Assembly: GCF_004010195.1 (NCBI RefSeq)
Contig: NC_057733.1
Location: 36,632,394 to 36,696,393 of the forward strand
DNA: 64,000 nucleotides
Reading direction: 5' to 3'
From: Chiloscyllium plagiosum
Taxonomy: Eukaryota
Shown here: positions 1 to 64,000 of the stretch, piece by piece
Layout of the letters: each line of letters starts with the position of its first letter
Numbering within the stretch: position 1 is the stretch's first letter
Made by a program: the position numbers and the translations under genes
Notes under the pieces: generated by a model
What the model was told of the DNA's origin: nothing
The model's database searches: none
The model's input: the letters and a program-made list of their open reading frames with translations, nothing else

Positions 1-345
1 GAGGGGCGTCGGAAATGTGATAGGTGGAAAGAGGTCAAGGTGAGGGTGATAGGTCAGACTGGCGTGGGGGCGGAGAGGTCGGGAAGAAGATTGCAGGTTA
101 GGAAGGAACTATATCAACGAACACATTGACTCGGACCCCATTTACCACCCCCTGACAAAATGAACAGGAAATGACATCACCACAGGAAATGACATCACAA
201 CTCCAGAGAAACCCAAACATATAAATAGAAAGCAGAAATCATCAGCAGTGTTCGTCTGGAGGCTCACTGAAAATGTTACCTAGCATGGTGATGAAATGTC
301 TGAAAATGAACCTTCCAGTTCAGTGAGCAAACCTACATCCATTGC
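1..345. mobile_element. Two fused Penelope-like element (PLE) fragments
   Basis: 1-108 matches the PLE at 18040-18115. 108-345 matches the PLE 3' ends at 13190-13415 and 32490-32722. Confidence 0.75.
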
Positions 346-464
346 TTAGCTCTATCTATCATCAAATCTGTAGGCCTGGCTCTCTTGCATAGAAGCTGAA
401 AGGACATCAAACCTGCAAGAGCTGAAACGTCTGCATTCCAGCCTTCTGAGTCTACTTCTCTGTC

Positions 465-680
465 TTACTTACCTGATCCTGACAACTGGCCAAAAGATCT
501 TCTCCCAAGTGGAGTGACTGCCTCCTGTAACAAAGTGTTCAAGTAATTCTCCACTTTCCTAATGTTCCATAGTATTTGCATTACAGCCTCCAGCTCATTG
601 ACTAAGCCAAAGGTTCTCAAGCTACAGATACTTACTGGAGAACCCCTACATCTGCAATTGCAATACACCGCCTGCTCTAC
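465..680 (-). mobile_element. Degenerate CR1-type LINE ORF1 fragment
   Basis: Translation (C..C...VNELEAVMQILWNIRKVENYL..EAVTP) resembles the CR1 ORF1 N-terminus seen at 54325-54684. Confidence 0.5.
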
Positions 681-789
681 TATCCTTACTGTGTTTTAAT
701 GGATTAATGATGACATTATTTATTGTCCTTTGAATTGTATTTGAGGCTATTCCTTACTATCATCTACTGAACGAATACCATTTTGTAAG

Positions 790-1110
790 GACGGCTGGGT
801 GGCTATGTGGTTAGAACTGTTACCTCACCGCGCCAGGTACCCAGGTTCAATTCCAGCCTTGGGTGACAGTCTGTGTGAAGTTTGCACATTCTCCCTATGT
901 CTGCATGGGTTTCGTCTGCGTGCTCTGGTTTCCTCCCATAGTCCAAAGATGTACAGGTTAGGTGAATTCACCATGCTAAATTGCACATAGTGTTCAAATG
1001 TGTAGGATGAGATAAATGTAGAGTAGTAGGGGAATGGGTCTGGGTGGGTTACTCTTTAGAGGGTCGGTGTGGGCTTGTTGGCTAAATGGCCTGTTTCCAC
1101 ACTGTCAAGA
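790..1110 (+). mobile_element. tRNA-derived V-SINE (HE1-like)
   Basis: A box (tggctatgtggttag), B box (ggttcaattcc), V-domain core gtctgtgtgaagtttgcacattctcc. Multiple copies in the window. Confidence 0.85.
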
Positions 1111-1739
1111 TTCAAAGATTCTACTTAAAAGTACCTAAAAATCGCTTTTTCTTGATTTCTAGTTATTTACATATTACAACACTACAATAAAGTACTTACA
1201 AATGAAGATAACAATTCAGATACTGATGAATTTGGATATCGGAATTTTGTTTTGGTTATGAAGGTGTGAAAATCGTTAGGGTTTTGTAATTTGTGAAAAC
1301 AATTCCACCAAATGAATACCAATGCCCAGTTGTGATTGGCTACCTTAGGCCATGATATGCATGGATCATAATCACACTCATATTTCCATTTACTAAATGG
1401 AACAGGCCAAAGAGGATGATGGAGACATTTCTTTATTTTAAATTTTATAAATGAGAAACATAAGATCAGTAGTCAGCCATTCACACCCTCCAGCCTGTGC
1501 TGTGCTTGTCTGGAGGGGTCATGGCTGAATTGTGACTTGTAGACTTTGCTTACATCCCTTAATACCTTTTTAACAAAATGTATTAATCCCAGACTTAAAA
1601 ATAATCTTTGGCAATTTGAGGAAGAATGATCCAAATATCTACTATCTTTTCTGTGCAGCAATATTTCCAAATCTGCTTCCATCAGCACTGCTTTAAAGTG
1701 CTAATTTGTAGAATAACAAAGTATTAAAAGCATTAAAAC

Positions 1740-1836
1740 TATTATTTGTTTCTGTATCACCACAACATCTGAAAGCAGTTTTGGAAATATGGGAAGTAGG
1801 TATCTGATTTCCTTGATCAGCCAGATCAGCTTCTTC
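1740..1836 (-). pseudogene. Degenerate third copy of the acidic repeat exon of the minus-strand gene
   Basis: Acceptor aaatcag| then EEADLADQGNQIPTS, aligning with ETTEDVAEGRDQTPTS (4839-4949). Flank 1921-1980 is homologous to 5041-5100. No clear donor. Confidence 0.45.
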
Positions 1837-2257
1837 CTGATTTGTGCGAAAATATAGATGATTGTGTTTGAGATGTTGTCCTTTTTGTTCTAAGTGAGAT
1901 CCTCTTTTATGCAACAAATTGTACTTTCATAGCACCTCAAACAAAATAAAAGATCCCAAAAGATTTCACAAGGTGAAAATCACTGGATAGCAACAAATGT
2001 TTGGAATGATGATGTCTCACCATTTGTATACATGGCTTTCAATTCCATTATTTAAATCATTTACAATACAATCCACAGTTTAAGCCCCTCTGCACAGCGT
2101 TTCAGTGAATTTGCCAAAGACAATTCCCTTCTCCCTTCATCGTCTCCTGTCAAACAGCCAAGTTCTTGATCAAGTAAATAATTTGACTTCAATTTCTTGA
2201 TCTTTCAAGGATAACCCACAGTAAAATTAAATATTAAACATACACACATATATTTAC

Positions 2258-2368
2258 CATGCTAGTCTGTACATTTACTGACACATATCCAACAATATTG
2301 AGGAATGAAGGAGGTTCTGAAGGTGATGTTCAATTTCTTTGGTCAGTAATGTCTTCAGTACATTTTTG
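2258..2368 (-). pseudogene. 111-nt repeat exon copy with in-frame TGA (pseudo-exon or poison exon)
   Basis: ctaatcag|CAAAAATGT...AGCATG|gtaaat. Translation QKCTEDITDQRN*TSPSEPPSFLNIVGYVSVNVQTSM has the same length and phase as exon 4839-4949. Confidence 0.6.
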
Positions 2369-2684
2369 CTGATTAGCTTAAAATGTAATCAATTATAAGT
2401 TGCTTTCACAAGAGATGCACTAACAGTTAAAACTTTAATATCAATTTTTTTGATGTATGTGAAACTTTGAGTTGGAAATTTGTATGTGCAGATTTATTGA
2501 AGTTCTCAGTGCCATTAACTGCTACCTGTAACACTCATGATCTATAAGAAATGTGTTCTGCTAACAAATGTTTTGTAGCACTTGTATTCCTTTGTTGTTC
2601 ATCAACCTGAGCCTGAATATTGTCCAGATCTTGCTGCCTGTGGGTGTAGTCTGCTCCATTATCTAATGAGTTGCCAACTACAGT

Positions 2685-3290
2685 CATAGAGTCATGAAGT
2701 CACAGAGATAAACAGCACAGAAACAGACCCTTCAGTCCAACTCGTCCATGCCGACCAAATATCCTAAATTAATTGAGTCCCATTTACCAGCATTTGGCCC
2801 ATATTCCCCTAAGCCTTTCCTATTCATATGCCCATCCAGATTTATTTTAAATATTGTATTTGTACCATCTTTCACCACCTCCTCTGACAGCTCATTCCAA
2901 ACACACATAACCCTCTGCATGGAAAAGTTGCCTCTTAGATCCCTTTTAAATTTTTCCTCCCTCACCTTATACCAATGCCCTCCAGTTTTGGACTCCACTA
3001 CCTATTCACCCTATCCATGCCCATCATGATTTTATAAATCTCAATAAGGGCACCTCTCAGCCTTTGATGGTCCAGGGAAAATAGACCAACCCATTCAGCC
3101 TCTCCCTGTAGCTCTCTCCAACTGTGGCAACATCCATTAAATCTTTTCTGCACCCTTTCAAGTTTCACAATATCTTTCCTATAGCAGGGAGATCAGAATT
3201 GAATGCAGTATTCCACAAGTGGCTTAACCAATATCCTGGACAGCTACAACATGACCTTCCAACTCCTATCCTCAATGCACTAACCAATAC
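2685..3290 (-). mobile_element. CR1/HER1-like LINE 3' fragment
   Basis: ORF 2732-2998 (KTGGHWYKVR..RGNFSMQRV..WNEL) is the typical CR1 ORF2 C-terminus. Short tandem-repeat tail near 2685. Confidence 0.85.
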
Positions 3291-3677
3291 TAAATACATC
3301 AGTGAACAGTGTGATGGAGATAAGGTCAGATGGGGTCCTGCAAGGATGATTTGATGTGAGTCTTATTATCTGGTTCCAATATGAAGAAAAGAACTAAATA
3401 CAAGATGAAGTGAGAGTAATTAACCAAGGCTGCATTTGACTGAATGTAGAATAAAGGAGTCTGGGAAGCCACACCCAAGCAAAACTGTTCCACTTTGGTT
3501 AGTATTCTGGTATATAATTGACAATGTGGGAAATGATCTCAGATCAATACAATCCAGCAATTACTTAGTTGCATCTTGATATTATGTTAAATAAATCAAG
3601 TTGACTTCAGGCTGACATCGGTGATGCTGGGGTCTTAGAGGACACTAAGATGAATCAATCACTTGGCATGTGATTTA

Positions 3678-4015
3678 GAGGGAAGGCGATGGCCTAGTGG
3701 TATTATCAATGGACTATAAATCCAGAATCCCAGGTAATGTTCTGGGCCATAGGTTTGAATTACCACAATAGCAGATGGTGGAAACTGAACCCAATAAAAG
3801 TCTGTAATTAAGACTTTAATGACAACCATGAAATCACTGCCAATTGTCCGAAAAACTCAAGTGGTGTCTTTTAGGGAAGGAAATCCACCATCCTTACTTG
3901 GTCTGGCTGATATGTGACTCCAGACCCACAGCAATGTGGTTGAAACTTAACAGTCGTCTGGGGCAATAAGGGATGGGCATTAAATGTTGGCCTGGCCAGT
4001 GAATGCCCACAACCC
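3678..4015 (+). mobile_element. tRNA-derived SINE with L2-like 3' tail
   Basis: ggcgatggcctagtgg head. 3' end gggcaataagggatgggcattaaatgttgg is shared with L2-like fragments. Second copy at 20660-21000. Confidence 0.7.
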
Positions 4016-4161
4016 AAAAATTAATTTTTTAAAAAGTCCATGATGGTTGCAAACATTTCAGTCTTGTTTGGCAGATGTCCTGGCTCTGCTATTATTGATG
4101 ACACAACATTCATGGAATTTTGTATTCATTTACTTGTACACTACAAACACAAATGGACTTA

Positions 4162-4470
4162 AGGGCGGCACAGTAGCTCAGTGGTTAGCACTGCTGCCTC
4201 ACAGCTCCAGGGACCCAGGTTCGATTCCAGCCTTGGGTGACTGTCTGTGTGGAGTTTGCACATTTTCCCAGTGTCTGCATGGGTTTCTTCCAGGTGCTCC
4301 AGTTTCCTTCCACAGTCCAAAGATGTGCAGGTTAGGTGAACTATTCAGGATGTGTAGGTTAAATGTATTAGTACAAATACGGTAGAGGAATGGGTCTGGG
4401 TGGGTTACTCTTCAGAGGGTTGGTGTGGACTTGTTGGGCCAAAGGGCCCATTTCCATGCTATAGGGATTT
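4162..4470 (+). mobile_element. V-SINE (HE1-like)
   Basis: gggcggcacagtagctcagtggttagcac...ggttcgattcc, V core, tttta tail. Confidence 0.9.
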
Positions 4471-4838
4471 TATTTTATTTTTCTATTCTATACTTGGCAG
4501 GATGTCTTCACTGTTGCTAGGTCAAAATCTGGAACTCCCTCCCTCAAATCACTGTTGGTATATCCACACCTTCTTAACATGATCAATTAGGGAGGGGCAA
4601 GAAGTGCTATAATTGTTTGAAATGCCAACAATCTCATGACCAAATAAATAAAAGAAAATAAAACATATTTGACCAGTTTTCTTTCCACATTGCCTGTGGT
4701 TAAATTCCAAAAAGGAAAGCAAACTTCAACCACTTCGTTCAATGGTATATCTCCTGATATATGAGAAATCAGTATAGAAATTATAACTTAATAAAATAAA
4801 AATTAAACATTGAAAATGATTTGAAGAAAGACAATTAC

Positions 4839-4949
4839 CGTATTTGCTTGTGTATATTCTGGAACATCCCCAAAAATATCTGGTGATACAGGAGGTTCTG
4901 AAGTGGGTGTCTGGTCTCTTCCCTCAGCAACATCTTCAGTAGTTTCTAT
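4839..4949 (-). CDS. Putative coding exon 3 of an unidentified minus-strand gene (IETTEDVAEGRDQTPTSEPPVSPDIFGDVPEYTQANT)
   Basis: Acceptor ttcttgcaaatcag, donor ACG|gtaatt, 111 nt, phase 0-0, open frame. Paralogous exon copies at 2258-2368 and ~1740-1836. Confidence 0.6.
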
Positions 4950-5429
4950 CTGATTTGCAAGAAATACAACAATTATTAGATGCCACACACAATATGTGTC
5001 TTTATTTTAATATTTACCTTATGGCTCTCTTTTTCAAACATGCACTTTGATGCACTCTTAATATAAGAAAACATCCCAAACATGTCACAGAGATGAAAAA
5101 AATAACTAAACAGCTAACAGTAGCAGGGAAAGTGTTTATGATGAGAATTCTAAGCAAGATCCAGGAGGTACATATTAAGGAGAAGGGAGACCTGAAAGAC
5201 ATTAGAAAAGTACAAAGTGGAAAACCATGAGGCAAGTGCCCACATTTTAAATGCCTGGCTTTGTTGACAAGTACTTGTCAATAAATCTGTCAGTAGAACC
5301 TTAGCACATTAGACAGCCAAATGGTTTTGGACTACCACAACATCAAGCAGCCTGAGGAAGGGAATGGCCTGTGTTATCAGGCAACCCAAGCACAGAAATC
5401 AATTTGGTTATGGCTCTGGTTTTAAAATT

Positions 5430-6790
5430 GTACTCCTTGGATGCTTGCTGGGCCAATATTAATTGTCTAATCCATAATTGTCCTCCAGAAGGTGGTGGTG
5501 AGTTTCCTTATCGAATTGCTACAATCCTAGGGTTGTAAAGGTAGTCATAGTGCTCTTAAAAAAAGGTCCTGGATTGTGACCCAGCAAAAAGTGAAGGAAT
5601 GATGACATACTGTAGTTCTAAGTCAGTTAGAGAAGAAAATGCAGTGGTAGACTCCCCATGTATCTGTTGGCCTTGTTCTTTTAGAAGATAGAGGTCATGT
5701 GCTTAGAAGGTACTGTTTAAGCAGCCTTGGTGACCTACACAGTGTATTTTGTGAATGGTACACACTGCTTCCACTGTGCATCAGTGGTGAAATGAGTAAA
5801 TGCTGAAGGTGGTGGTAAGGTGCCAGTCAAGCAAATTGCTTCAGTAAAACAAGGAACTTCAGATGCTGGAGATCAGAAACAAAAACTGAAATTGCCGGTG
5901 AAACTCAGCAGTCTGACAACATCCATGGGAAGAAAGCAGAGTTAATGTTTCAAGTTCAGTGATTCTTCATCAGAATGCTTCATCTTGAATGGTGTCAAGG
6001 TTCTTGAGTGCTGCTGGGAGCTGTACTCATTCAGCAACTTGAAAATATTCCATCATATCCTGATTTATGCCTTATTGATGGTGGACAGATTTTGAGCAGA
6101 CAGGAGGTGACTTGCTTGCTGCAGAATTTCTTTTCTGATCTGATCTTCTAGCCACAATATTTGCATGCCTGATCCAGTTCAGTTTCTGGTAAAAGGTAAT
6201 TACCAAAATGCTAGTGATGGGAGATTCAGTGATGGAAATGTCATAGAATATCAAGGGTGATAGTTTGATTCTCTCTTATTGGTGGATGGACATTGCTGTG
6301 TCTAATGTATTCAACTGATTCTTGAAATTAAGTGAAATATATCATGTTGTCTGAGAACTTGCACGTAACGTTTGGGATCCAACAGGCTGGACTTCCTCAT
6401 CATTGACAATGGAAAAGTTCTTGAAGATTCCTCTTCCAATTAATTGATGAATTGTTTACCACTATTTATGATAGGATGTGACAGAACTGCAGAGCTTGAT
6501 CTCATCCTCTGGTTGTGGGATCACTGAACTCCATCTATGACATTATGCTTTCACTGTTTAGCATGCATGTACTCCTGTGCTGTAGCTTCAATAAGTTGGC
6601 ACCTGATTTTTATGTATACCTTTTGCTGCCCTCGGCATGATTTCATAAACCTTTCATTGAACCAGAATCAACTGCCTCACTTGATGGTGCAGTAGAGTGA
6701 GGAATATCTTGGGCCATGGCATTGTAGGTGGTGACTGAGTACAATTCTCATCTGCTCATGACCCACAGCACCTCATGGCTGTTAAGTGTT
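5430..6790 (-). mobile_element. Decayed L2-like LINE fragments with a small PLE insert (~5850-5975)
   Basis: Similar to 42190-43015 and, inverted, to 21040-21660. No intact ORF. Confidence 0.55.
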
Positions 6791-6980
6791 GAGGTGATAG
6801 TCAGCAAAGCTGCAACTTACCTGGATGAAATATTCTTCAATGACAAATACTAAGTCTCAAATATTTGGAGAAATTTTACAACAAAACTTGTCTTCTGAAG
6901 TGCTTAGTCTATGATACAATGCAAGGCACAACTGCTACCATATTTATAGTAAAAATCAAACAGCCAAAAATTGTATTTAC

Positions 6981-7044
6981 CATCTGTGCACTTTCTGGTC
7001 CATCTTCATCCTCATGCAAGGTTTGAAAGGTCTCAGATGGGGGG
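6981..7044 (-). CDS. Putative coding exon 2 of the minus-strand gene (PPSETFQTLHEDEDGPESAQM)
   Basis: Strong acceptor tttgtttcatttttcatag, donor ATG|gtaaat, 64 nt, phase 2-0. Phases join 10199-10215 and 4839-4949 in frame. Confidence 0.55.
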
Positions 7045-7224
7045 CTATGAAAAATGAAACAAAGGAACTAAATAATCATATTAAACAAATGTTCAATATT
7101 GAATAATGCAAATAATTTACTGGTTTAGAACTACATTTTAAGAGACCAGTTTAAACATAAACTTATATTTCCTATGATGATTCCTCTCAGATCACTCGAG
7201 GTGCTGAAGACCAGGCTTTGGTTC

Positions 7225-9185
7225 ATTGAATTGAATTGAATTGAATTTATTGTCACATATACTGAGGCACAGTGAAAAGCTTTGTCTTGCGAGCAATACA
7301 GACAGATCACATAGTTAAGTGGCATAGATAAGTAAATAATAGATAAACAGCAGCAAAAACAAATACACAGGTACAGGCGAATGTTAAAAGTTTGTGAGTC
7401 CATTCAGTATTCGAGCAACAGTAGGTACCGGCTGGTGCATGTGTTCAGGCTTCTGTACCTTCTCCCCGATGGCAGACTACAGACAGGAGGTGGAAGACCT
7501 AGAAAAATGGTGCATTGAGAACAACCTAGCTCTCAATGTCGGCAAAACCAAGGAACTGATTATTTACTTCTGGCAGGATGTTACTCATGCCCCCCCTACC
7601 CATTAACAGCACAGAGGTGGAATGAGTGGAGTGTGTCAAGCTCTTGGGAGAGGTCATCCACAACAAGCTTTCTGGGACTCTTCATGTGGATGCACTGGTT
7701 GCAAAGACCCAACAATGTCTCTTCTTCCTCAGGCAGCAGAGAAAATTTGGCATGACTTCAAATACCCTTGCCAACTTGTATAGATGCGCCATCAAGAACA
7801 TTCCGTCTGGATGTATCACTATCTGGTTTCACAAGCTTTCATTGCCAGGGTAGGATGGATCTTTGAGAATGCTGGCGGCCTTTCCTTAACAGCGGGCCTG
7901 ATAGATGGATTCTAGATGGGAGGTTGGCCTTTGTGATGTTCACCACTCTCTGTAACTCTCTTCGATCTGAAATGGTACAGTTGTCATACCAGGTAGTGAT
8001 AGATCCAGACAGAATGCTCTCGATAGTGCACCTACCTAGGGTATGCACCACCATGCCAAATTTCCTCAGCTGCCTGAGGAAGAAGAGACGTTGTTGGGTC
8101 TTTGCAACCAGTGCATCCACATAAAGAGTCCAAGAAAGCTTGTTGTGGATGACCACTCCCAACAGCTTGACACTCTCCACTCATTCCACCTCTGTGCTTT
8201 TAATGTGTAGGGGGGGCATGAATAACATCCCACCAAAAGTCAATAATGAGTTCCTTGGTTTTGCTAGCATTGAGAGCTGGGTTGTTCTCAGTGCACCACT
8301 TTTCCAGGTCTTCCATCTCCCGTCTGTAGTCTGTTTCGTCGCCATCTGAGATTCGACCGACTATGGTGGTGTCATCAGCGAACTTGTAAATGGCATTATC
8401 TGGTATTTGGCGACGCAGCCATGGGTATACAATGAGTACAGTATGCACCCCTGGGGGCTCCAGTGTTGAGTGTTAGTGAGGATGAAATATTGCCCCCAAT
8501 CTTCACTGATTGTAGCCTGTGGATCAGGAAACTGAGAATGCAGTTGCAGAGAGAAGGGCTTCGTCCGAGAATACTAACTTTAGTAAAAAGTCTCGAGGGG
8601 ATAGTAGTGTTGAAGGCTGAACTGTAGTCAATGAATAGGATTCTTACATAGCTGTTCTTGGTGTCAAGATGTCCTAGGCAGGCATGAAGGGCAAGTGATG
8701 TGGCATCTGACATGGATCTGTTGGTCCTAAAGGCATATTGGAGTGGGTCAAGAGTAGTGGGGAGGCTAGAGTTGATTAATGTCCTGACCAGCCTTTCAAA
8801 GCATTTCATGACCACCAAAGTTAGAACCACTTTGTCATTGAGATATGCTGCATGAACCTTCTTAGGCACAGGAATGATGTTGGCCCTCTTGAAACAATCA
8901 GGGACAGTGGCCTGCTGCAGGGAGAAGTTGAAGATGTCCAAGAAGACCTCTGCCAGTTGATCTGTGTATGCACTGAGTGCACGGCCTGGTATTCCGTCTG
9001 GTCCCATTGTTTTCCTTGGATTTAAACAAAGGAAAACTGATCTGGCCTCTGATGCAGTGACCATTGGGATAGGTACGTCAGGACTTGTTGGAATATTTGT
9101 TATCTCTCTGCTGAAATTCTGCTCAAAGTGAGCATAGAAGGCGTTGAGACAATCTGGGAGGGATGTGTCATCGTCTGCTATTATT
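7225..9185 (-). mobile_element. Rex1/Babar-like non-LTR retrotransposon, 5'-truncated, with internal inverted duplication
   Basis: RT motifs GPDGIPGRAL, IIPVPKK, QYAFRTNRS, FIDYSSAFNT, KFADDTT. (ATTCA)n tail at 7226-7245. 7470-7830 is an inverted copy of ~7960-8330. Confidence 0.85.
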
Positions 9186-9562
9186 TTCCATTATCCCTGC
9201 CATCCATGTCATTTTGTTCTATTTTCACAGTAATCCCTTTCTTGATTCATCATCTAACCTAGTTTACTCATTCGCTGATGATTCCATTCTATTAATTTCA
9301 TTCCAATGACATACTAACTACCACAATGCTTTCCATTGTCCAACAAGTGAATCTGTATAATGAGGTCTTCATGCATTTTGATAAATATTATTTTTATCAA
9401 TTCTACAAAATCATATTGGGATACATTTTTAATATGTTACCTTATAGGAAAATTGACATTTCGGCCAACCATCTTTTATGGAAGGCTCATATTTTTTATA
9501 ACCTTAAATCAAAATCATGCTATTTCTGTGGTGAATAACCAATTGTCAATAAAGGTGCAGTC

Positions 9563-9890
9563 GTTCAGTGGTTAGCACTGCTGCCTCACGGTGCCAAGGA
9601 CCCGGTTCAATCCCACCTGTCTGGTGTTTGCACATTCTCTCTGTGTCTGTGTGGGTTTCCTCCAGGTACTTTGGTTTCCTCCCACATTCCAAAGATGAGC
9701 AGGTTGGGTGGATTGATCATGCTAAATTGGCCGTGGTATCCACTTGTGTGCAGGCTATGTGGATAAGCCATGGCAAACGCAGCAGGGTCATAGGAAAACG
9801 GTGGGGGGTTATGGCCTGGGAAAGATACTCTTCAGAGGGTCGGTATGGGCTCATGGGGCGAATCGGCTGCTTCCGCACTATCGGAATTCT
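9563..9890 (+). mobile_element. V-SINE (HE1-like)
   Basis: tcagtggttagcactgctgcc, ggttcaatccc and V core. Confidence 0.8.
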
Positions 9891-10198
9891 ACAACCAGGA
9901 AATTTTACAAACGCCTGTGGCAATCCAAATGTATTCATATTTCCATCAAATCTAACTTAGGGATGAACCACAATGTTAACTCTAAATAATTCAATTTCAG
10001 CTGTTCTTTATCTGTTAGCCCCACCATCTCTTCCGACATCAAGTATAAACTTCGCACGTTCTTTCTTGTTCAACATTCCTTTAAGAAGCATGGTTTTCTT
10101 TACTATACAAACATCTACTGAAATATTTCGAAAAACAGACATTCTACAAATGTGAACACTGAAGTATTAAGAATAGATGAGGGAAGTGATGAAGTTAC

Positions 10199-10215
10199 CC
10201 CTCTCCGTCCGCCAT
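10199..10215 (-). CDS. Putative start exon (MADGEG) of the minus-strand gene
   Basis: Strong Kozak aacATGG. ATG GCG GAC GGA GAG GG|gtaact is a phase-2 donor compatible with exon 6981-7044. Confidence 0.5.
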
Positions 10216-10222
10216 GTTCTCT

Positions 10223-10235
10223 GTTGCTAAGAGAC
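10223..10235 (-). promoter_or_regulatory. RFX X-box-like motif (GTCTCTTAGCAAC)
   Basis: Matches the X-box pattern GTYNCY-N(0-3)-RGYAAC, 7 nt 5' of the minus-strand ATG. Confidence 0.55.
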
Positions 10236-10406
10236 GATTACAACAACCCGGCCGCTGTCCCAGTGCGTTGTCGGACTGTACCATGCTTTGGGAGAGGGGG
10301 TGTTTGTGTGTGGAGGTTGGGTTGTCAATGGTGAGAAGGCAAGGAACAGACACCCCTCCCCGTGACCGTGTAGATGTGGACCGGCCCAGTGGGTGAAGCC
10401 GGAGCT

Positions 10407-10416
10407 GTCATGTGAC
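10407..10416. promoter_or_regulatory. CLEAR/M-box element GTCATGTGAC (MiT/TFE site)
   Basis: One base from the CLEAR palindrome GTCACGTGAC, with the M-box core TCATGTGA, in the CpG island upstream of a lysosomal hydrolase gene. Confidence 0.7.
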
Positions 10417-11983
10417 TCGGCTCACCGGCGGTTTGTTCATTTCTGGTTCTCGGGTCAGGAGGTTCTCTGAGGTAGACACACTCGGTGAACTGAGAGCTGG
10501 TTCTGGTCGTTACTTACAAGTTGGTAGAAGATTGGAGTGTGACTGAATCCAACTCCTCGGTGTTTCCAGCCTTTTCCACTTTCTATCGCGGCTTCAAATA
10601 CCCGATGAAGGAGCAGCGCTTCGAAAGTTCGTGGTTTCACGTAAACCTGTTGGTAAATACAGTGGTACCGGGACTGCAGAGAACAACAGGAGGAAGTCTT
10701 TCAGGCCCTCCAGCCTGTTTCACAATTCGGCACCTAAACATCCCTGTCATCACATTTCACCGCAGCTTTTGATCCTGCTTACCAACCAGAGTCTGTCTCA
10801 ACATTTAGTTCCAGAAGAGTAAGCGCTTTCATTTCTTGTTTCATGTTTTAATGTTGAAGGCATTTTGATATATTGCATCTGCCAGAGGTATTTTCTGGCG
10901 TCAACATAAGTTATCCTAAAAAGGCATTCGCTGCAGACAAGGGAAATGATACCTGCGTATTTGAGTTACAAACAGCGATCAGCTTTGTTGCTTTTATGTT
11001 ATCTATGTTAAAATAGCCACAATAGTTTGTTAAATTAAACTTCTGATGTTGGCTTGCATGTCTGGATTCTCTGCTTAATGATGTTACAGTCTGTGACTGT
11101 CAGCCATGAATATGTAAACACTACACTAACTCCATTGTACAGAGACTGCAACTGAGGCGAATTGCGTACCTTTATCCTGGGGTGTTGCATGTTGTCATTT
11201 CATGGAAATCTCTCAAAGGTCTGGAAAATCTGTGCTGTGACACAACATGTCACCTTTTACTTTGATGCTAGGAATCAAATTGCAGATTAGGTTGCAGATA
11301 AGATTTGTACCTAATACATAGTCATAAAGCCATGCAGCATGGAAACATTTCCTTTGGCCCAACTAGTCCATGATGATTGTAATCCCAAACTAAACTAATC
11401 TCACCTGCCTGCTTCTGACCCATTGATAGGATGTGGCATCACTGGCTTGACCAGCATTTATTGCTAATTGCTGAGATGGCACTTGAGAGTAAATCGCATT
11501 GTGGGTCTCAAGTCTCATATAAGCCACACCAGGTAAGGATGATGGATAGGCTTTGAGAAGTCAGTAGATGAGGTGCTTGCTGCAAACTACTAGCTGTAGC
11601 CAGTGTATTTATATGATTAGTACAGTCGAGTTTCTGGTTAATGGTAAATCCCAGGATAGTAAGTGGGGGATTCCATTATACCATTGACTGTCAAGGGGTG
11701 ATGGTCTTGCCTGATATTTGTGTGGCCCAAGTGTTACTTGCCATTTTTCAGCCCAAACCTGTGCATTGACTGGATCATGCTGCATTTGGATATGGACTGC
11801 TTCAATATCTGAGGAGTGATGAATAGTACTGAAATGTGGTGCAATCATCAGTGAACATTCCCACTTCTGACCTCCAAAGGGAAGGTCTTTGAAGCAGCTC
11901 AAACACTTCCCTGAGGAACTCCTACAGAGATGACCTGGAGCTGAGATGACTGACATCCAACACTTATGTTTTTGACAGATCAC

Positions 11984-15830: not shown

Positions 15831-17102
15831 TCCATTGCAATTTATTTGAAAGTGCATCCTCCACTGACTAGACCATCAGTCGTATATTCTTGAGGTTTGT
15901 CTAGAAATGCTTTTCTGAAGGATTTGATGTGTGTTGAAATCATCACCAATTTCATAAGCATTTCAGCTTCAGTGAAATGACATTCTGTTCCTTTTTAAGT
16001 CAAGACATATCTATGAATTGGTCAAATATTTCACCAGTTTTTGGTGATATGCAAGAATTTAATCCTGAAATTGAATCAAACTTTATTTTGATCACTTTAT
16101 TTTGATTTTATAATGTGAGAAATTTGTGGGTATTTGTCAATCTCTAAGTAAGGATTGATTCCTTGAATAACTGAGGTCCTGACAAACGTCAATGCATTGC
16201 CAATCCAAATCAAAAAATCTATATTTAGTGTGCTGTTTGTGGTTTTTTTTTTTGCCAAATTTCTTATTTTTGCTGCCCTTTTTAAAGATGACAGGCTTGT
16301 TTATTTTAAGGAAAAGAAAATCATTTTTCCTTGGTAAAAGTAAGGCAAAAAACATTTCAAGTCATTTCAGAAAAAGGAAATAGCAGAATGGGCTAAAGAG
16401 TAACAGCAAGGCCTCTTTAGTCTGGAAACATTTCTCTTGGTATTTTGTTCCTGTACTTTTTTTTCCAGGATTTCTTTCATAGATTTTGTAAGCTGTCGTC
16501 TTTTTGTTTCAAGAGAAATAGAGTATATGTTGTGCTTCAGTACAAGTTTGTAGCATTTAGTTTTGTTTGTAGCACTTTTGTCTTTGTTTTCCCAACCATC
16601 CATGTGTCTGAGTTGACAGCTGAAATTACAACGTAGCACATCTGCCATGCTGCTATTACCTTTTCAGCTTTTATCTGCATATTGCTGCAAACTGCCTCTT
16701 GCCACTAGCTTTAATATTGACTTGTTGCTATGATTAGTGCACTACATACAATATACATCAACAGTCGTGTTGAGTCAGATGTCTGAAGTTTATTAACAAC
16801 GCTAACTACTTAGCCAGGCATAATATCAGAGACTTGCAGTCTGGGTTGAATGATTAAACTGGCTCCTTTATGCAAAAATCAATAACCTAATGTTTTGTCA
16901 TCTTGAATTATATTGCCCTTATCCATTGACTCTGCAAGTCTGTTTAATATTTTCCTGTATTTTGGAAGTACTCTATTATAATATGTTTAGATCAAAGTCT
17001 GCTTTATTGTAGCACAAAACCATTGCAGGTTTTGAACTTTTTTTTTCTTTCTCTCTCATTTAGGTACTAGAACAAAGCTTCAAGATCAACTGTCTTTTTA
17101 TC

Positions 17103-58953
<41,851 letters not shown>

Positions 58954-59708: not shown

Positions 59709-60288
59709 AAAAATTGTAGAATTGACCTTTCAGAGTGCTGCTCCTTCATCAGGTAGCTATGGAGCAGGATCATAAGACAACTTATTGCAAAATTCTGCAG
59801 AATTGTGGGATACTGTGTGTGTGTGTGTGTTTTTTCCTTTGGTACAAACTCTCTGAAATACAACTGAAAAGTAACCGGCTATTTGATTTCCGTCTGATCA
59901 GCCTGCCATGGCATCTCAACCAGTTTGAATGGTTATAGGGTGCTGTTAAAGCTGTTAGTACAGCTGTCATAGGCACTCTTAAATTCCTACATCAACTTTA
60001 CAAAGGTTTGTCAAAGGCAAAAAAATTCATTTGCACTAGCAGAATTTCATTGTCTTCAGCATGGGGAAATCCCAGACAGCCCTTATTCTTTCTTTTGGAG
60101 TTACTTCGCCTTTTCCCATTGCAGTCTAAATATGCCCCTTTGCAAATAATTCTAAGCGTACAGTGATTGAAGATTCACCTTTTTACTTTTATGGGGCTGG
60201 TTGCTCAGCCATTGTACTCCTTTTCCATATTAGCCTCTTCCTTCATTCATCATTCATCCCTTTCGGCATCAGTTTGCAGATAGCTGCA

Positions 60289-60577
60289 CAAAGTTTGTGA
60301 GAAGATTTGTAGCTCGGGTGCTCGTTGTTGTGGTTCTGTTCGTCGAGCTGGGAATTGCAGTCACACTCCAATTTATTTATTCACACTCCACTCCATTTAT
60401 ATATCCCCGCGTTTTTTTTTCCAAATTAAAACCTCAAATGCAGTTGCAGACGTTTCGTCCCCTGTCTAGGTGACGTCCTCAATGCTTGGGAGTCTCCTGT
60501 GGAGCTTCAGGATGTTACCTAGACAGGGGATGAAACGTCTGCAACACAAATTCCCAGCTCGGCGAACAGAACCATAA
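60289..60577. mobile_element. PLE-derived hairpin insertion with templated filler
   Basis: 12-bp target-site duplication cagatagctgca (60277, 60578). Inverted arms. Filler 60360-60443 is partly copied from 60772-60823. Confidence 0.8.
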
Positions 60578-60941
60578 CAGATAGCTGCATCTTTGATAAT
60601 TTCACTCCAATTACACATCTTCAATGCACATAACAACGATTCCTCCCACTTTCCAACAGGTCAATCTCCTCTTCTGGGCTCCGAGAGACTGCAATGCCTA
60701 TTATTGTGTAAAGTATTTTTGGGATAGTTTTTGATTAGTATCTGAATGTAAAACTGGTATTGCGGACAGCACATTTATATATCCCCGCGTTTTTTTTTCC
60801 AAATTCAAACCTCAAATGCAGTTTATTTTTCGAATGAAGTAGTCGTTTTGATGGGTCTGGAAATGTTTTAATGAAAATATTAATTAACGGTTCTGAAGTT
60901 TCCGATTTCGTCAGCAGTGAAGTACCAGTGATATAAAGAAG

Positions 60942-61541
60942 AACAGACATTCTACAAATGTGAACACTGAAGTATTAAGAATAGATGAGGGAAGTGATGA
61001 AGTTACCCCTCTCCGTCCGCCATGTTCTCTGTTGCTAAGAGACGATTACAACAACCCGGCCGCTGTCCCAGTGCGTTGTCGGACTGTACCATGCTTTGGG
61101 AGAGGGGGTGTTTGTGTGTGGAGGTTGGGTTGTCAATGGTGAGAAGGCAAGGAACAGACACCCCTCCCCGTGACCGTGTAGATGTGGACCGGCCCAGTGG
61201 GTGAAGCCGGAGCTGTCATGTGACTCGGCTCACCGGCGGTTTGTTCATTTCTGGTTCTCGGGTCAGGAGGTTCTCTGAGGTAGACACACTCGGTGAACTG
61301 AGAGCTGGTTCTGGTCGTTACTTACAAGTTGGTAGAAGATTGGAGTGTGACTGAATCCAACTCCTCGGTGTTTCCAGCCTTTTCCACTTTCTATCGCGGC
61401 TTCAAATACCCGATGAAGGAGCAGCGCTTCGAAAGTTCGTGGTTTCACGTAAACCTGTTGGTAAATACAGTGGTACCGGGACTGCAGAGAACAACAGGAG
61501 GAAGTCTTTCAGGCCCTCCAGCCTGTTTCACAATTCGGCAC
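60942..61541. promoter_or_regulatory. Putative bidirectional promoter block, copy B (X-box 61031-61043, CLEAR/M-box 61215-61224, antisense ATG exon 61007-61023)
   Basis: Matches 10134-10733 and lies 1.8 kb upstream of the second GAA first coding exon. Confidence 0.8.
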
Positions 61542-63375
61542 ACCTCACACAGCCTTTCGCTACTATTTTTAATCCTATTTACCAACAACTACCTCAACAT
61601 TTAGTGTTAGCGTAAGCATTTTAATTTGTTGTTTCACGTTGTTAGATTTTAATTTCAATGACATTTACAGTACTGGAACTGTCAGCGTTAAAAGGTGCAT
61701 TCCAGTATCATTAGCAGAAGTTTGTCGTTGACATTCTGTATAAACGAGGCAGTGACATTGGGCAACATACTTGCTGACTTTGCAATTCTTTTCAGTATAT
61801 GTCTTTTAAAGTTGATTTTGTAACGTCGTGCTGGGGCATTGGTGGTGATAGATCACCAAATGGGCATTTTATTGTGCGTGAACCTTGCGTAGACTTTAAG
61901 AATGTTATTTGACTTGATTTTGGAATAGAAAGTTCTAGTAGGCTACACTGCCTAGAGCGAACACAATGTAAGGATGATATAGATAAATACAAATGTACTA
62001 AAACAATATTTCAAACTAATGCGACATAAGTCTAAGTTTTTGTTTCCTTCGTCAGAATGGCGTAGCCTAATTTTCAATATGACTGATAAGTGGCTAATGC
62101 AGTAGTTTTATGTATTGCAAGATCCCACACAAACACAAAATTGGCAAATAATGGATTAAGCTTTTCCCTTATGGTGTTTATTGGCAAATAAACATTGATA
62201 ACACTAGGGAATCTACTTCATTAGCAGTATGTTATCTTTAACATGGTATTTAAGCTAGCAGAGGTTACCTCTAATTTAGAATCTAAACAAAATATACCAT
62301 GTAAAACAATGTAGCATTTCTTCAATTTTTCACTGAAGTGTCAACCTGCATTATATGCTCAAGTCAGGGCTAAACTGAAGCCAGATCTTTTAATCCAGAA
62401 GTGAGTATGCAACAAAGCTGACGTTAATGAAACTGATTTAGGAAGTGGTGATTAGATGTCCAAAGTAAAGTTGAGTTGTGGAATCCAGAAACTTTAATAC
62501 AAAGTCAGTGATCTGTTCAAAATGATGTAGTATATAGTTAGTTATCTGAAGGATGTTGACCACACTTGCCTGAAATCCACATCTCAGAAGGAGACCATTT
62601 GGCTTATCTGTGAACTCTAGCTCTCACTCATTTCACTTTTTTAGGCTACCCCATTTCTGTTTCTCTTCATGTAGATAGTAAACTTACTCTTAATCCATTT
62701 TGGGTGATAGTGAGATATGCATTCTACTGTTTTTTGTATTTTTCTGAAATTTATTTGGTTAGTGGTTATCTTCTGTTTATGTCCTATTATTTTGGATAGG
62801 CCCACAAGTAATAGTGATTTTTCACATCCTTCAATTTGAAGATTCTGCAGGGAAACAAGCTGCAGCTTGCATATTTCCTGATCACTGCATCATCTTAATT
62901 TTGGTAATATCCTTGGAAATCTTTTGTACAAACTCTCCTGTACTTTAATAATCATTTTAATACTCGGGACCACTATGTTCAGGTCTGTTCTCCAAAGTGT
63001 AATTTCACTTAAGTTCTACACAAAGTTAACAATACTCCATAAGTTTCATATTTTGTTTTCCTAGGAATGATTTCTAAAATTTGGGTTTAATAACTTGTAT
63101 TGCTCTTTGTTTCAGCACCCCTAGACATATTTTCCCTCTATTTAATTTACTTTTAGATTTGAGCTCCCAAAGAAATCATGACCTACCAAAATCATCAACT
63201 TCATTCTGTGAACATTCCATTCCATTGTGAAGTATCTTGTTTATCAGCATTAAGTTGTAGTATGAGATGACATTGTTCCCTGTTTTGAACACTAACTTTT
63301 TATTTTAAACATTTCTACTCTGTCCTTTAGGTGGACAAAGTGAACCACAACTTCAAGATCAACTGCCTCGTCATC

Positions 63376-63993
63376 ATGTTCCTACAACATTACAAAGCAG
63401 AAAAATGTGCTCTTGCTCCAGGAAATGAAGGAAAGGTGCTAGCAGGATTTCCAACTGTCACAAAGCCAAGAATGCCTGCAACTAATGTTATTAAAAATGG
63501 AGCAATCCTTCTTAGTGTCATTTTAGTTGTTGTAATTACATACCATAGTTATTTTACTCTCGAGTCTCAAGTGATTCCTCGGCATGTTAAAATGAGGATG
63601 TTTAAACTAGATTTATTGTGGCAATACCCACATGATAAAAACAGAACAGAGACTTCAGAAATACTGAACCAGCTGCCATTCAATTACAGTCATCACAGTG
63701 ACTCCCAATGTGATATTGATCCAAATAGTAGATTTGATTGTGCTTTCAATGAAGCGATTGACATGACCAAATGTCAGAGTCGTGGCTGCTGTTGGAATTC
63801 AGCAGCCAAAGCTGGTTCTCCACCCTGTTTCTTGCCATCAAACTATCCTTCTTACCACATGGATTACCTTTCCCCAACAAGTACTGGCTACACAGCCTCA
63901 CTGAGCCGCAGTGAGATGACACTGTTCCCAAATGACATAATGACACTTCAGTTGAATGTAATGTATGAGACATCTGGCAGACTTCATTTTACT
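63376..63993 (+). CDS. GAA: Tandem GAA paralogue (copy 2), first coding exon (exon starts 63331); gene continues beyond the window
   Basis: Open 206-codon frame MFLQHYKAEK...CDIDPNSRFDCAF..CQSRGCCW..CFLPSNYPSY...GRLHFT|gtaagt. Collinear with 17103-17720 without indels. Not listed in the ORF track because no stop is reached. Confidence 0.93.
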
Positions 63994-64000
63994 GTAAGTA

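What the first reader, a model, noticed from the sequence alone, without database searches (positions are those of the whole stretch)
1740..10215. Unannotated minus-strand gene head-to-head with GAA
Seen: three exons with canonical splice sites and compatible phases (10199-10215, 6981-7044, 4839-4949) give MADGEGPPSETFQTLHEDEDGPESAQMIETTEDVAEGRDQTPTSEPPVSPDIFGDVPEYTQANT, an acidic Pro/Thr-rich N-terminus. The ORF track does not show it as one unit. Known: RFX X-boxes close to the start site mark ciliary genes, and CCDC40, the mammalian neighbour of GAA, is ciliary with an acidic low-complexity N-terminus. Inference: a ciliary or testis gene, possibly CCDC40-like, shares a promoter with GAA. 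I cannot identify it from this peptide, and mammalian CCDC40 is co-directional with GAA rather than head-to-head.
Basis: partly seen in the sequence, partly recalled or inferred. Interest (0 to 1): 0.7.

Follow-up and report, generated by a model that had tools for sequence, protein, structure and literature searches.

The report
Shark CCDC40 head-to-head with duplicated GAA
The "unannotated" gene is the already annotated shark version of the cilia-building gene CCDC40, which here points away from the lysosomal enzyme gene GAA across one short control region, and an exact 600-base copy of that region also sits in front of an old second GAA gene, probably pasted there recently.

Summary
The three exons are real and in frame. 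They are not unannotated: read from the upstream ATG at 10284 they give residues 1-87 of RefSeq XP_043570739.1, CCDC40 of Chiloscyllium plagiosum, 87 of 87 identical. That protein matches solved CCDC40 chains (E 3e-205). CCDC40 and GAA (17103-58953, 960 of 960 residues) diverge from one CpG island holding one X-box-like and one CLEAR/M-box-like site. A shared promoter is inferred; no RNA evidence was obtained.

Its first coding exon is only 74% identical to the first copy's, and the split predates Stegostoma, yet 600 bases before it (60942-61541) are identical to 10134-10733, including CCDC40 exon 1 with its donor. Both copies carry a base that appears private to this species, so recent gene conversion is likeliest (about 0.7); an assembly artefact is not excluded. 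Two dead copies of a repeat exon lie at 2258-2368 and about 1740-1836.

A known gene, with a modest and apparently undescribed piece of locus history.

The parts
10199..10215 (-). CCDC40 coding exon 1 from the conserved ATG (MADGE G/), phase-2 donor GTAACT
   Evidence: a MA(D/E/G)(G/E)ES-like start opens most elasmobranch CCDC40 models
10216..10284 (-). Upstream in-frame ATG extension (23 codons) used by the two Chiloscyllium RefSeq models; probably 5' UTR or promoter rather than the true start (inference)
   Evidence: absent from the models of other genera printed
6981..7044 (-). CCDC40 exon 2 (64 nt)
   Evidence: acceptor ranks 2 of 679
4839..4949 (-). CCDC40 exon 3 (111 nt, phase 0-0), one unit of an acidic repeat-exon array
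2258..2368 (-). Decayed copy of the 111-nt repeat exon: AG and GT kept, in-frame TGA at codon 13; skipped by the RefSeq model
   Evidence: local score 82; median of all 400-base windows 20; best match is the second repeat of Mustelus CCDC40, score 76 against a shuffle maximum of 40
1740..1836 (-). More decayed, frameshifted repeat-exon copy; acceptor kept, no clear donor; lower end approximate
   Evidence: score 40, on its own near background; first 15 codons match the Cetorhinus/Carcharodon repeat, scores 59/55 against shuffle maxima 34/32; a later piece GDTETN matches the same repeat
10223..10235 (-). X-box-like site GTCTCTTAGCAAC, 8-20 bases before the conserved CCDC40 ATG
   Evidence: 27 of 2000 shuffles of the block for a strict recalled pattern, 554 of 2000 for a loose one; the GTNRCC form is not matched
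10407..10416 (+). CLEAR-like site GTCATGTGAC (one mismatch to GTCACGTGAC; contains the TCATGTG M-box)
   Evidence: the only two GTCAYGTGAC sites in the window are this one and its copy; 11 of 2000 shuffles; motif definitions from PMC9363479 passage
10134..10733 (.). Promoter block A, core of the CpG island (about 9751-11000) between CCDC40 and GAA-A
   Evidence: CpG o/e 0.69; window median 0.22
60942..61541 (.). Promoter block B, 600 of 600 bases identical to block A, inside its own wider CpG island (about 60001-62250)
61007..61023 (-). Exact copy of CCDC40 exon 1 with its donor; use unknown
17064..58953 (+). GAA copy A, lysosomal alpha-glucosidase: acceptor at 17064, ATG 17103, 19 coding exons, 960 aa
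   Evidence: translation equals XP_043570740.1 = P0028; Pfam Trefoil and GH31
63331..64000 (+). GAA copy B, first coding exon (acceptor 63331, ATG 63376); gene runs off the window
   Evidence: XP_043570742.1 = P0009

Best explanation
The minus-strand exons are the 5' end of CCDC40, which with CCDC39 forms the coiled-coil ruler that sets the 96-nm repeat of motile cilia and sperm tails. They encode the start of its acidic, low-complexity N-terminal arm; the coiled coil lies left of the window. SHOWN: identity of the gene; its orientation away from GAA; one CpG island between the two. INFERRED: the island is a bidirectional promoter, with the X-box-like site letting RFX factors drive CCDC40 leftward in ciliated cells and sperm, and the CLEAR/M-box-like site letting MiT/TFE factors drive GAA rightward from a non-coding first exon. 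GAA was duplicated in tandem long ago (SHOWN: before carpet sharks diversified), and the duplicated unit began at this promoter. INFERRED: a recent gene-conversion event between the two promoters, 50,808 bases apart, made 600 bases identical, most likely from A to B, carrying CCDC40 exon 1 along as a passenger. The N-terminal arm evolves by gain and loss of small in-frame repeat exons; two dead ones remain in the intron after exon 3. Confidence by step: CCDC40 identity 0.98; shared promoter 0.8; real recent conversion 0.7.
For: Identity: the exon-3 query hits only two proteins, both shark CCDC40 models (E 3e-15, 2e-14; 2 of 5 candidates). 87 of 87 residues equal XP_043570739.1. That protein matches 6 solved chains, 3 named CCDC40 and 1 FAP172. 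169 proteins at E<=1e-50 among 7999 scored candidates, the named ones listed being CCDC40 or unnamed/hypothetical. Neighbourhood: CCDC40 and GAA lie on contigs of the same length in 16 of 16 elasmobranch species for which both had RefSeq accessions; the accessions are within 7 numbers in 12 of 16. Locus tags are consecutive in two draft assemblies (chiPu_0003641/2, scyTo_0016244/5). Ccdc40 is down-regulated in Rfx2 knockout mouse testis (PMC4498915, PMC4745085, passages). Human GAA has non-coding first exons and CCDC40 directly upstream (PMC7013133, passages). Conversion: coding exon 74% identical, 10 of 44 four-fold sites differ, longest identical run 31 bases. A and B clades each have SH-aLRT 100 in a quick tree. 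The block sits in register: the 120 bases to its right are still homologous (score 104; 0 of 200 shuffles reach it). Both flanks of block B are CpG-rich (o/e 0.78 and 0.78), so it is a native promoter island. CCDC40 residue 6 is Gly here but Ser in 18 of 23 models printed (15 other species; 1 Thr, 3 without this start), and both blocks carry the Gly-type base.
Against: No transcript-level evidence was obtained for any junction, start site or strand. The RefSeq model may come from the same assembly as the window, so the independent support is the other species' models. The classical GTNRCC X-box form and the exact CLEAR palindrome are not matched, and the patterns that do match were written after I had seen the sequence, so their shuffle counts are optimistic. 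GAA exon 1 is not located: several candidate donors score alike (10453, 10330, 10652, 10818). A perfectly identical block is also what an assembler gives when it collapses two similar copies. The left flank shows no homology (88 of 200 shuffles reach the score). The coding regions show no sign of A/B conversion in carpet sharks (0 species-pattern against 152 and 153 paralog-pattern sites; 2 against 81 with Stegostoma), so conversion would be confined to the promoter. That Ser6 is an AGC codon in relatives is inferred; I had no DNA from them.
Confidence: 0.8

Rival explanations
1. CCDC40 and its orientation are as described, but block B is an assembly or polishing artefact: the assembler wrote copy A's promoter into the place of copy B's.
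For: 600 of 600 identity with sharp ends; no left-flank homology; the window has two N gaps, so the assembly is not gap-free; the shared species-private base is equally expected under this reading.
Against: A graph assembler can only swap paths through identical words at both ends (general knowledge). Outside the block the longest identical A/B run in the coding exon is 31 bases, and the left end lies in CCDC40 intron 1, where copy B should be unconstrained. So real near-identity, itself a sign of earlier conversion, is needed. The block is in register with old homology on the right and inside a native CpG island.
Confidence: 0.22
2. Both promoter copies are kept alike because both are used in both directions: block B also starts a CCDC40 transcript that runs antisense through GAA-A and splices from 61007 to the acceptor at 7044.
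For: Exon 1, its donor GTAACT, 65 bases of intron and the X-box-like site are all intact in block B.
Against: It needs a 54-kb intron across an oppositely transcribed housekeeping gene, with strong minus-strand acceptors close by (58208 scores 11.8; exon 2 scores 10.3). Intactness is fully explained by recent copying. Selection alone would not keep every base.
Confidence: 0.1
3. The two genes are only neighbours: GAA-A starts from a separate site nearer its first coding exon, and the island serves CCDC40 alone.
For: The island is 6.3 kb from the GAA-A acceptor; GAA exon 1 was not located.
Against: No 500-base window between 11000 and 17750 reaches CpG o/e 0.45 (windows with N skipped). The same block stands 1.8 kb before GAA-B, where no CCDC40 follows. 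The only two CLEAR-like sites of the window are in these blocks.
Confidence: 0.12
4. The exons belong to a new gene or a CCDC40 paralogue or pseudogene rather than to CCDC40 itself.
For: The window holds only the low-complexity N-terminus; residues 88-330 of the RefSeq protein have no convincing match in the window (best E 0.53); two broken exon copies follow exon 3.
Against: 87 of 87 identity to the annotated CCDC40, whose accession directly precedes that of GAA-A on a contig of the same length; orthologous models in other carpet sharks join the same exons to the coiled coil.
Confidence: 0.02

Closest known systems
CCDC40 / FAP172 (RefSeq XP_043570739.1; PDB 8J07, 9FQR, 7JU4)
   Same: Same protein as the RefSeq model over the 87 residues in the window; the full model aligns to solved CCDC40 chains over about 870-920 residues; acidic N-terminal arm as in other vertebrates (D+E 0.22-0.34 in 23 of 24 models; one not parsed).
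   Different: The shark arm is built of small repeat exons that vary in number between species; the conserved coiled coil is outside the window.
Human CCDC40-GAA locus, 17q25.3
   Same: CCDC40 lies directly upstream of GAA, and GAA begins with non-coding exons (PMC7013133, passages).
   Different: In human and mouse the two genes are co-directional and CCDC40 is head-to-head with TBC1D16 (recalled, not from a call; the passage read does not give strands). Here they are divergent, and GAA is a tandem pair.
Bidirectional promoters pairing an axonemal gene with an unrelated gene, e.g. PACRG/Parkin
   Same: A ciliary structural gene and a broadly expressed gene diverge from one promoter (bioRxiv 10.1101/783373, search listing and start of abstract only).
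   Different: Different genes; sharing is inferred here, not measured; here the promoter also exists twice.
Interlocus gene conversion between tandem paralogues (concerted evolution)
   Same: A tract of perfect identity at homologous positions of old duplicates (general knowledge).
   Different: The tract covers the CpG-island promoter and a neighbour's first exon, while the coding regions show no conversion in carpet sharks.

Membership tests
CCDC40 | Sequence orthology to CCDC40/FAP172 over the long coiled coil | tested here: met
   Tested on the RefSeq protein whose first 87 residues equal the window's: E 1.5e-219 and 3e-205 to chains named CCDC40, 8.7e-90 to FAP172; no chain named CCDC39 among the 6 hits at E<=1e-5. 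The coiled coil itself is outside the window.
CCDC40 | BRE1-like Pfam match within the coiled coil (feature recalled from the CCDC40 literature) | tested here: met
   PF08647 E 7e-16 and 8e-16 in P0001 and P0002; not run on P0005 itself
CCDC40 | Acidic low-complexity N-terminal arm before the LVVLDPDHP motif | tested here: met
   P0005 residues 1-220: D+E 0.25, K+R 0.05, P+S+T 0.26
CCDC40 | Neighbour of GAA | tested here: met
   In the window directly; indirectly in 12 of 16 elasmobranchs by near-consecutive accessions
CCDC40 | Forms the 96-nm ruler with CCDC39; loss removes the 96-nm repeat | not testable with these tools
   Shown for human in PMC10266980 (passages); not tested for the shark protein
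Bidirectional promoter | Two genes on opposite strands, 5' ends facing apart | tested here: met
Bidirectional promoter | Start sites within about 1 kb, in one CpG island | tested here: inconclusive
   CpG island present; neither start site mapped; GAA exon 1 not located
RFX target (X-box) | X-box near the start site | tested here: inconclusive
   One site matches two recalled patterns but not the GTNRCC form; 27 and 554 of 2000 shuffles; binding not tested
CLEAR network gene | GTCACGTGAC or M-box near the start site | tested here: inconclusive
   Exact CLEAR absent; one-mismatch site containing TCATGTG at 10407-10416 and 61215-61224
Lysosomal alpha-glucosidase (GH31, GAA) | Trefoil domain, GH31 barrel, catalytic WIDMNE and HWTGD motifs (motifs recalled) | tested here: met
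   both motifs in P0028 and P0009
Gene-conversion tract | Identity far above the paralogues' divergence, at homologous positions | tested here: met
   600 of 600 against 74% and 10 of 44 four-fold sites different; in register on the right side only
Gene-conversion tract | Present in the real genome, not only in the assembly | not tested
   No read-level result was obtained

The most novel reading that the evidence does not exclude
In elasmobranchs the ciliary ruler gene CCDC40 and lysosomal GAA share one promoter. After GAA was duplicated, recurrent conversion confined to the CpG island has kept both GAA copies under the same control element while their proteins diverged (81% identical). It also gives CCDC40 a second, identical first exon 50.8 kb upstream, from which ciliated cells and sperm transcribe antisense across the whole of GAA-A, a possible cell-type switch between the two enzymes that short-read RNA data could not reveal.
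Probability: 0.08. Interest if true: 0.6.

Novelty: new member of a known kind. Interest (0 to 1): 0.27.

Why it matters
The gene itself is known and annotated, so the finding as written is mostly explained. What remains is locus history around two human disease genes (ciliary dyskinesia, Pompe disease). If the divergent arrangement holds across sharks and basal bony fishes, CCDC40 was flipped in place in one lineage and swapped its promoter partner, which is a clean case for asking how an RFX-controlled gene keeps its control through an inversion. The 600-base identical promoter on old GAA duplicates is, if real, a vertebrate example of conversion limited to a CpG island. It would fit recombination aimed at promoter-like features, as described for species lacking functional PRDM9 (PMC5519329, passages; the same paper reports partial PRDM9 in some cartilaginous fish; not tested for this species). 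Practical point: reads from that block cannot be assigned to one locus, so expression and chromatin data for CCDC40, GAA-A and GAA-B start sites will be ambiguous. None of this is a new kind of system.

Tried and rejected
No whole genome is held for this window, so sequence left of the window could not be read. Sequencing-run search: 18 runs listed, no RNA holder listed; not evidence either way. No reads were laid, so splicing, strand and the copy number of the block remain untested. A 23-base motif from the block found 0 matches in metagenome contigs; uninformative for a shark. Rfam at gathering thresholds: 0 matches in the window. The X-box search was void (ambiguity letters not expanded) and was redone. 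The acceptor scores were void (off by one base) and were redone. The row R3f2 used the wrong frame and shows nothing. The careful tree did not finish; the quick tree is used, and its deep nodes are open, so one old duplication with episodic conversion cannot be told from several independent ones. The two horn-shark copies group together (SH-aLRT 96). In one search the two Carcharodon rows are isoforms of one gene, not a pair. Idea that the N-terminal extensions of Carcharodon and Heptranchias GAA mark exon 1: dropped, they match sequence inside the first coding exon. Exon 2 has no second copy in the window (next best score 32 against 178). Earlier-findings look-ups returned nothing on this locus; those listed were unrelated or bacterial conversion cases and were not used. 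Paper searches for the arrangement or the duplication: CCDC40+GAA+synteny 1 irrelevant paper; acid alpha-glucosidase+shark+tandem duplication 0; gaa2+zebrafish+Pompe 0; TBC1D16+CCDC40+GAA 2 human association studies, listings only; at least 3 of CCDC40/shark/head-to-head/bidirectional promoter/glucosidase 28 papers, none of the 20 listed containing CCDC40. The library lacks most subscription journals; I read no supplements, and genome-paper supplements could show the arrangement.


Full report
Observation. On the minus strand, 10215-10199 runs from ATG to a GTAACT donor, 7044-6981 and 4949-4839 have AG before and GT after, and the 192 bases translate without a stop to the quoted 64 residues. 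Their splice signals are ordinary. With matrices trained on the 18 introns of the neighbouring GAA gene, the donors rank 49, 24 and 38 of 530 GT sites and the acceptors 2 and 160 of 679 AG sites on the minus strand of 1-10300. The model therefore rests on conservation.

Identity. A search with exon 3 plus a few flanking codons returned 2 proteins among 5 candidates, both shark CCDC40 models (E 3e-15, 2e-14). Their cluster holds XP_043570739.1, CCDC40 of Chiloscyllium plagiosum. The full protein matches solved chains named CCDC40 at E 1.5e-219 and 3e-205 and FAP172 at 8.7e-90. So the gene is annotated CCDC40. Residues 88-330 have no convincing match in the window (best E 0.53) and must lie to its left. 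The ATG at 10215 is the likelier start, since a MADGES-like start opens most elasmobranch models and only the Chiloscyllium models carry the 23-residue extension. In human cilia, loss of CCDC40 or CCDC39 removes the 96-nm repeat (PMC10266980, passages). That the shark protein does the same is inferred from orthology.

Repeat exons. Exon 3 is one unit of an array. Other sharks have several such units in the acidic arm, in varying number. Two more lie in the window but are broken. 2258-2368 keeps AG and GT and the 111-base length but has an in-frame TGA; its best match is the second repeat of Mustelus CCDC40 (score 76, shuffle maximum 40). About 1740-1836 is frameshifted; its first 15 codons match a Cetorhinus and Carcharodon repeat (59 and 55 against maxima of 34 and 32). 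The RefSeq model skips both. This reads as birth and death of in-frame exons in a weakly constrained region.

The neighbour. GAA copy A has 19 coding exons on the plus strand, 17103-58953, and translates to XP_043570740.1 at 960 of 960 residues. CCDC40 and GAA therefore point apart. Between them is one CpG island (about 9751-11000; o/e up to 0.73, window median 0.22). It holds one X-box-like site 8-20 bases before the CCDC40 ATG and one CLEAR-like site, GTCATGTGAC, at 10407-10416. Neither is a perfect textbook match. The X-box patterns are recalled, and all patterns were written after seeing the sequence, so the shuffle counts (27 and 11 of 2000) are optimistic; a loose X-box pattern is met by 554 of 2000 shuffles. 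Mouse Ccdc40 falls in Rfx2 knockout testis (PMC4498915, PMC4745085; passages), and MiT/TFE factors bind GTCACGTGAC and TCATGTG (PMC9363479, passage). Human GAA starts with non-coding exons just downstream of CCDC40 sequence (PMC7013133, passages). A bidirectional promoter is thus likely, but no start site was mapped and GAA exon 1 was not located. That the mammalian genes are co-directional is recalled. Adjacency seems general in elasmobranchs: same-length contigs in 16 of 16 species with both accessions, accessions within 7 numbers in 12 of 16. These data give no strands, so I cannot say which orientation is ancestral.

Second GAA and the identical block. A self-comparison of the window showed a second GAA first coding exon at 63318-64000, 74% identical to copy A, which is XP_043570742.1. 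Two distinct GAA proteins appear in 14 of the 20 species listed (10 of the 13 clusters were looked up). In a quick tree the carpet-shark A and B copies form separate clades, each with SH-aLRT 100 and each including Stegostoma. Both keep the catalytic motifs. The coding regions have not been exchanged in this group: 0 species-pattern sites against 152 and 153 paralog-pattern sites with Hemiscyllium and C. punctatum, and 2 against 81 with Stegostoma. Yet 60942-61541 equals 10134-10733 at 600 of 600 bases, taking in both motifs, CCDC40 exon 1, its donor and 65 intron bases. At the coding exon 10 of 44 four-fold sites differ and the longest identical run is 31 bases. Even at 2% divergence, 600 identical bases have probability 5e-6, so this is not retention from the duplication.

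Conversion or artefact. For a real event: the block is in register, since the next 120 bases on the right are still homologous (0 of 200 shuffles reach the score), and both flanks of block B are CpG-rich (0.78 each), as a long-standing promoter should be. Residue 6 of CCDC40 is Gly here and Ser in 18 of 23 models printed, from 15 other species including C. punctatum (1 Thr, 3 lacking this start). Both blocks carry the Gly-type base, which dates the copying after the split from C. punctatum, if Ser is AGC there (inferred). Against: the left flank shows no homology (88 of 200 shuffles), and an assembler that collapses two similar copies writes exactly such a block; the shared base does not separate the two readings. 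A collapse would itself need near-identical ends. I put real recent conversion at about 0.7. The direction A to B is inferred from the CCDC40 exon being intact in both. No read-level test was obtained.

Mechanism in brief. Shown: CCDC40 5' exons; divergence from GAA-A; old tandem GAA pair; identical promoter blocks in the assembly. Inferred: RFX drives CCDC40 leftward and MiT/TFE drives GAA rightward from one island; conversion copied the island core to GAA-B; the copied CCDC40 exon 1 is a passenger. Its use as a real alternative first exon would need a 54-kb antisense intron past strong nearer acceptors (58208 scores 11.8), so I give it about 0.1.

Novelty and verdict. The gene and both GAA copies are in RefSeq. 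I found no paper on the divergent arrangement or on the elasmobranch GAA pair in five searches (listings only, no supplements, open-access library). Bidirectional promoters and conversion between tandem paralogues are well-known kinds. Interest 0.27, carried mainly by the duplicated promoter, which needs a read-level check.

Noticed in passing
window 10134-10733 and 60942-61541: 600-base identical promoter blocks before two old GAA paralogues, each with CCDC40 exon 1, its donor, an X-box-like and a CLEAR-like site.
   Followed up: partly
window 17064-58953 and 63331-64000; proteins P0009-P0064: Tandem GAA pair; two distinct GAA proteins in 14 of 20 elasmobranch species listed. The horn-shark pair groups together, the batoid and carpet-shark pairs are old. 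A draft C. punctatum model fuses both into 1742 aa, A before B.
   Followed up: partly
window 2258-2368 and about 1740-1836, minus strand: Two dead copies of the CCDC40 repeat exon; related units are coding in lamniform and carcharhiniform sharks, while a different 26-residue unit is doubled in Hemiscyllium and C. punctatum.
   Followed up: yes
window 60394-60445 and 60772-60823; 60443-60545: A 52-53-base direct repeat (98% identical) just left of block B, with a 103-base imperfect palindrome (MITE-like) directly after the first copy. It may mark a rearrangement at the old duplication boundary.
   Followed up: no
window 35703-35968 and 34036-34195: Long imperfect palindromes in GAA-A introns (266 and 160 bases), made of repeat-element ends.
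   Followed up: no
window 7473-9190, minus strand: Broken LINE reverse-transcriptase remnants in CCDC40 intron 1 (RVT_1 E 1.1e-5, below the curated cut-off), with an inverted partial copy at 7473-7834.
   Followed up: partly
window 9472-9443, minus strand: A draft C. punctatum model (P0001) starts CCDC40 at an intron-1 ATG (MVGRNVNFPI), matched 10 of 10 in the window; probably a prediction error, possibly an alternative first exon.
   Followed up: no
proteins P0088 and P0133: Xenopus tropicalis has two CCDC40 proteins in different 90% clusters on contigs of the same length.
   Followed up: no
window 24001-25250: A third stretch of raised CpG (o/e 0.49-0.60) inside a GAA-A intron; not explained.
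   Followed up: no
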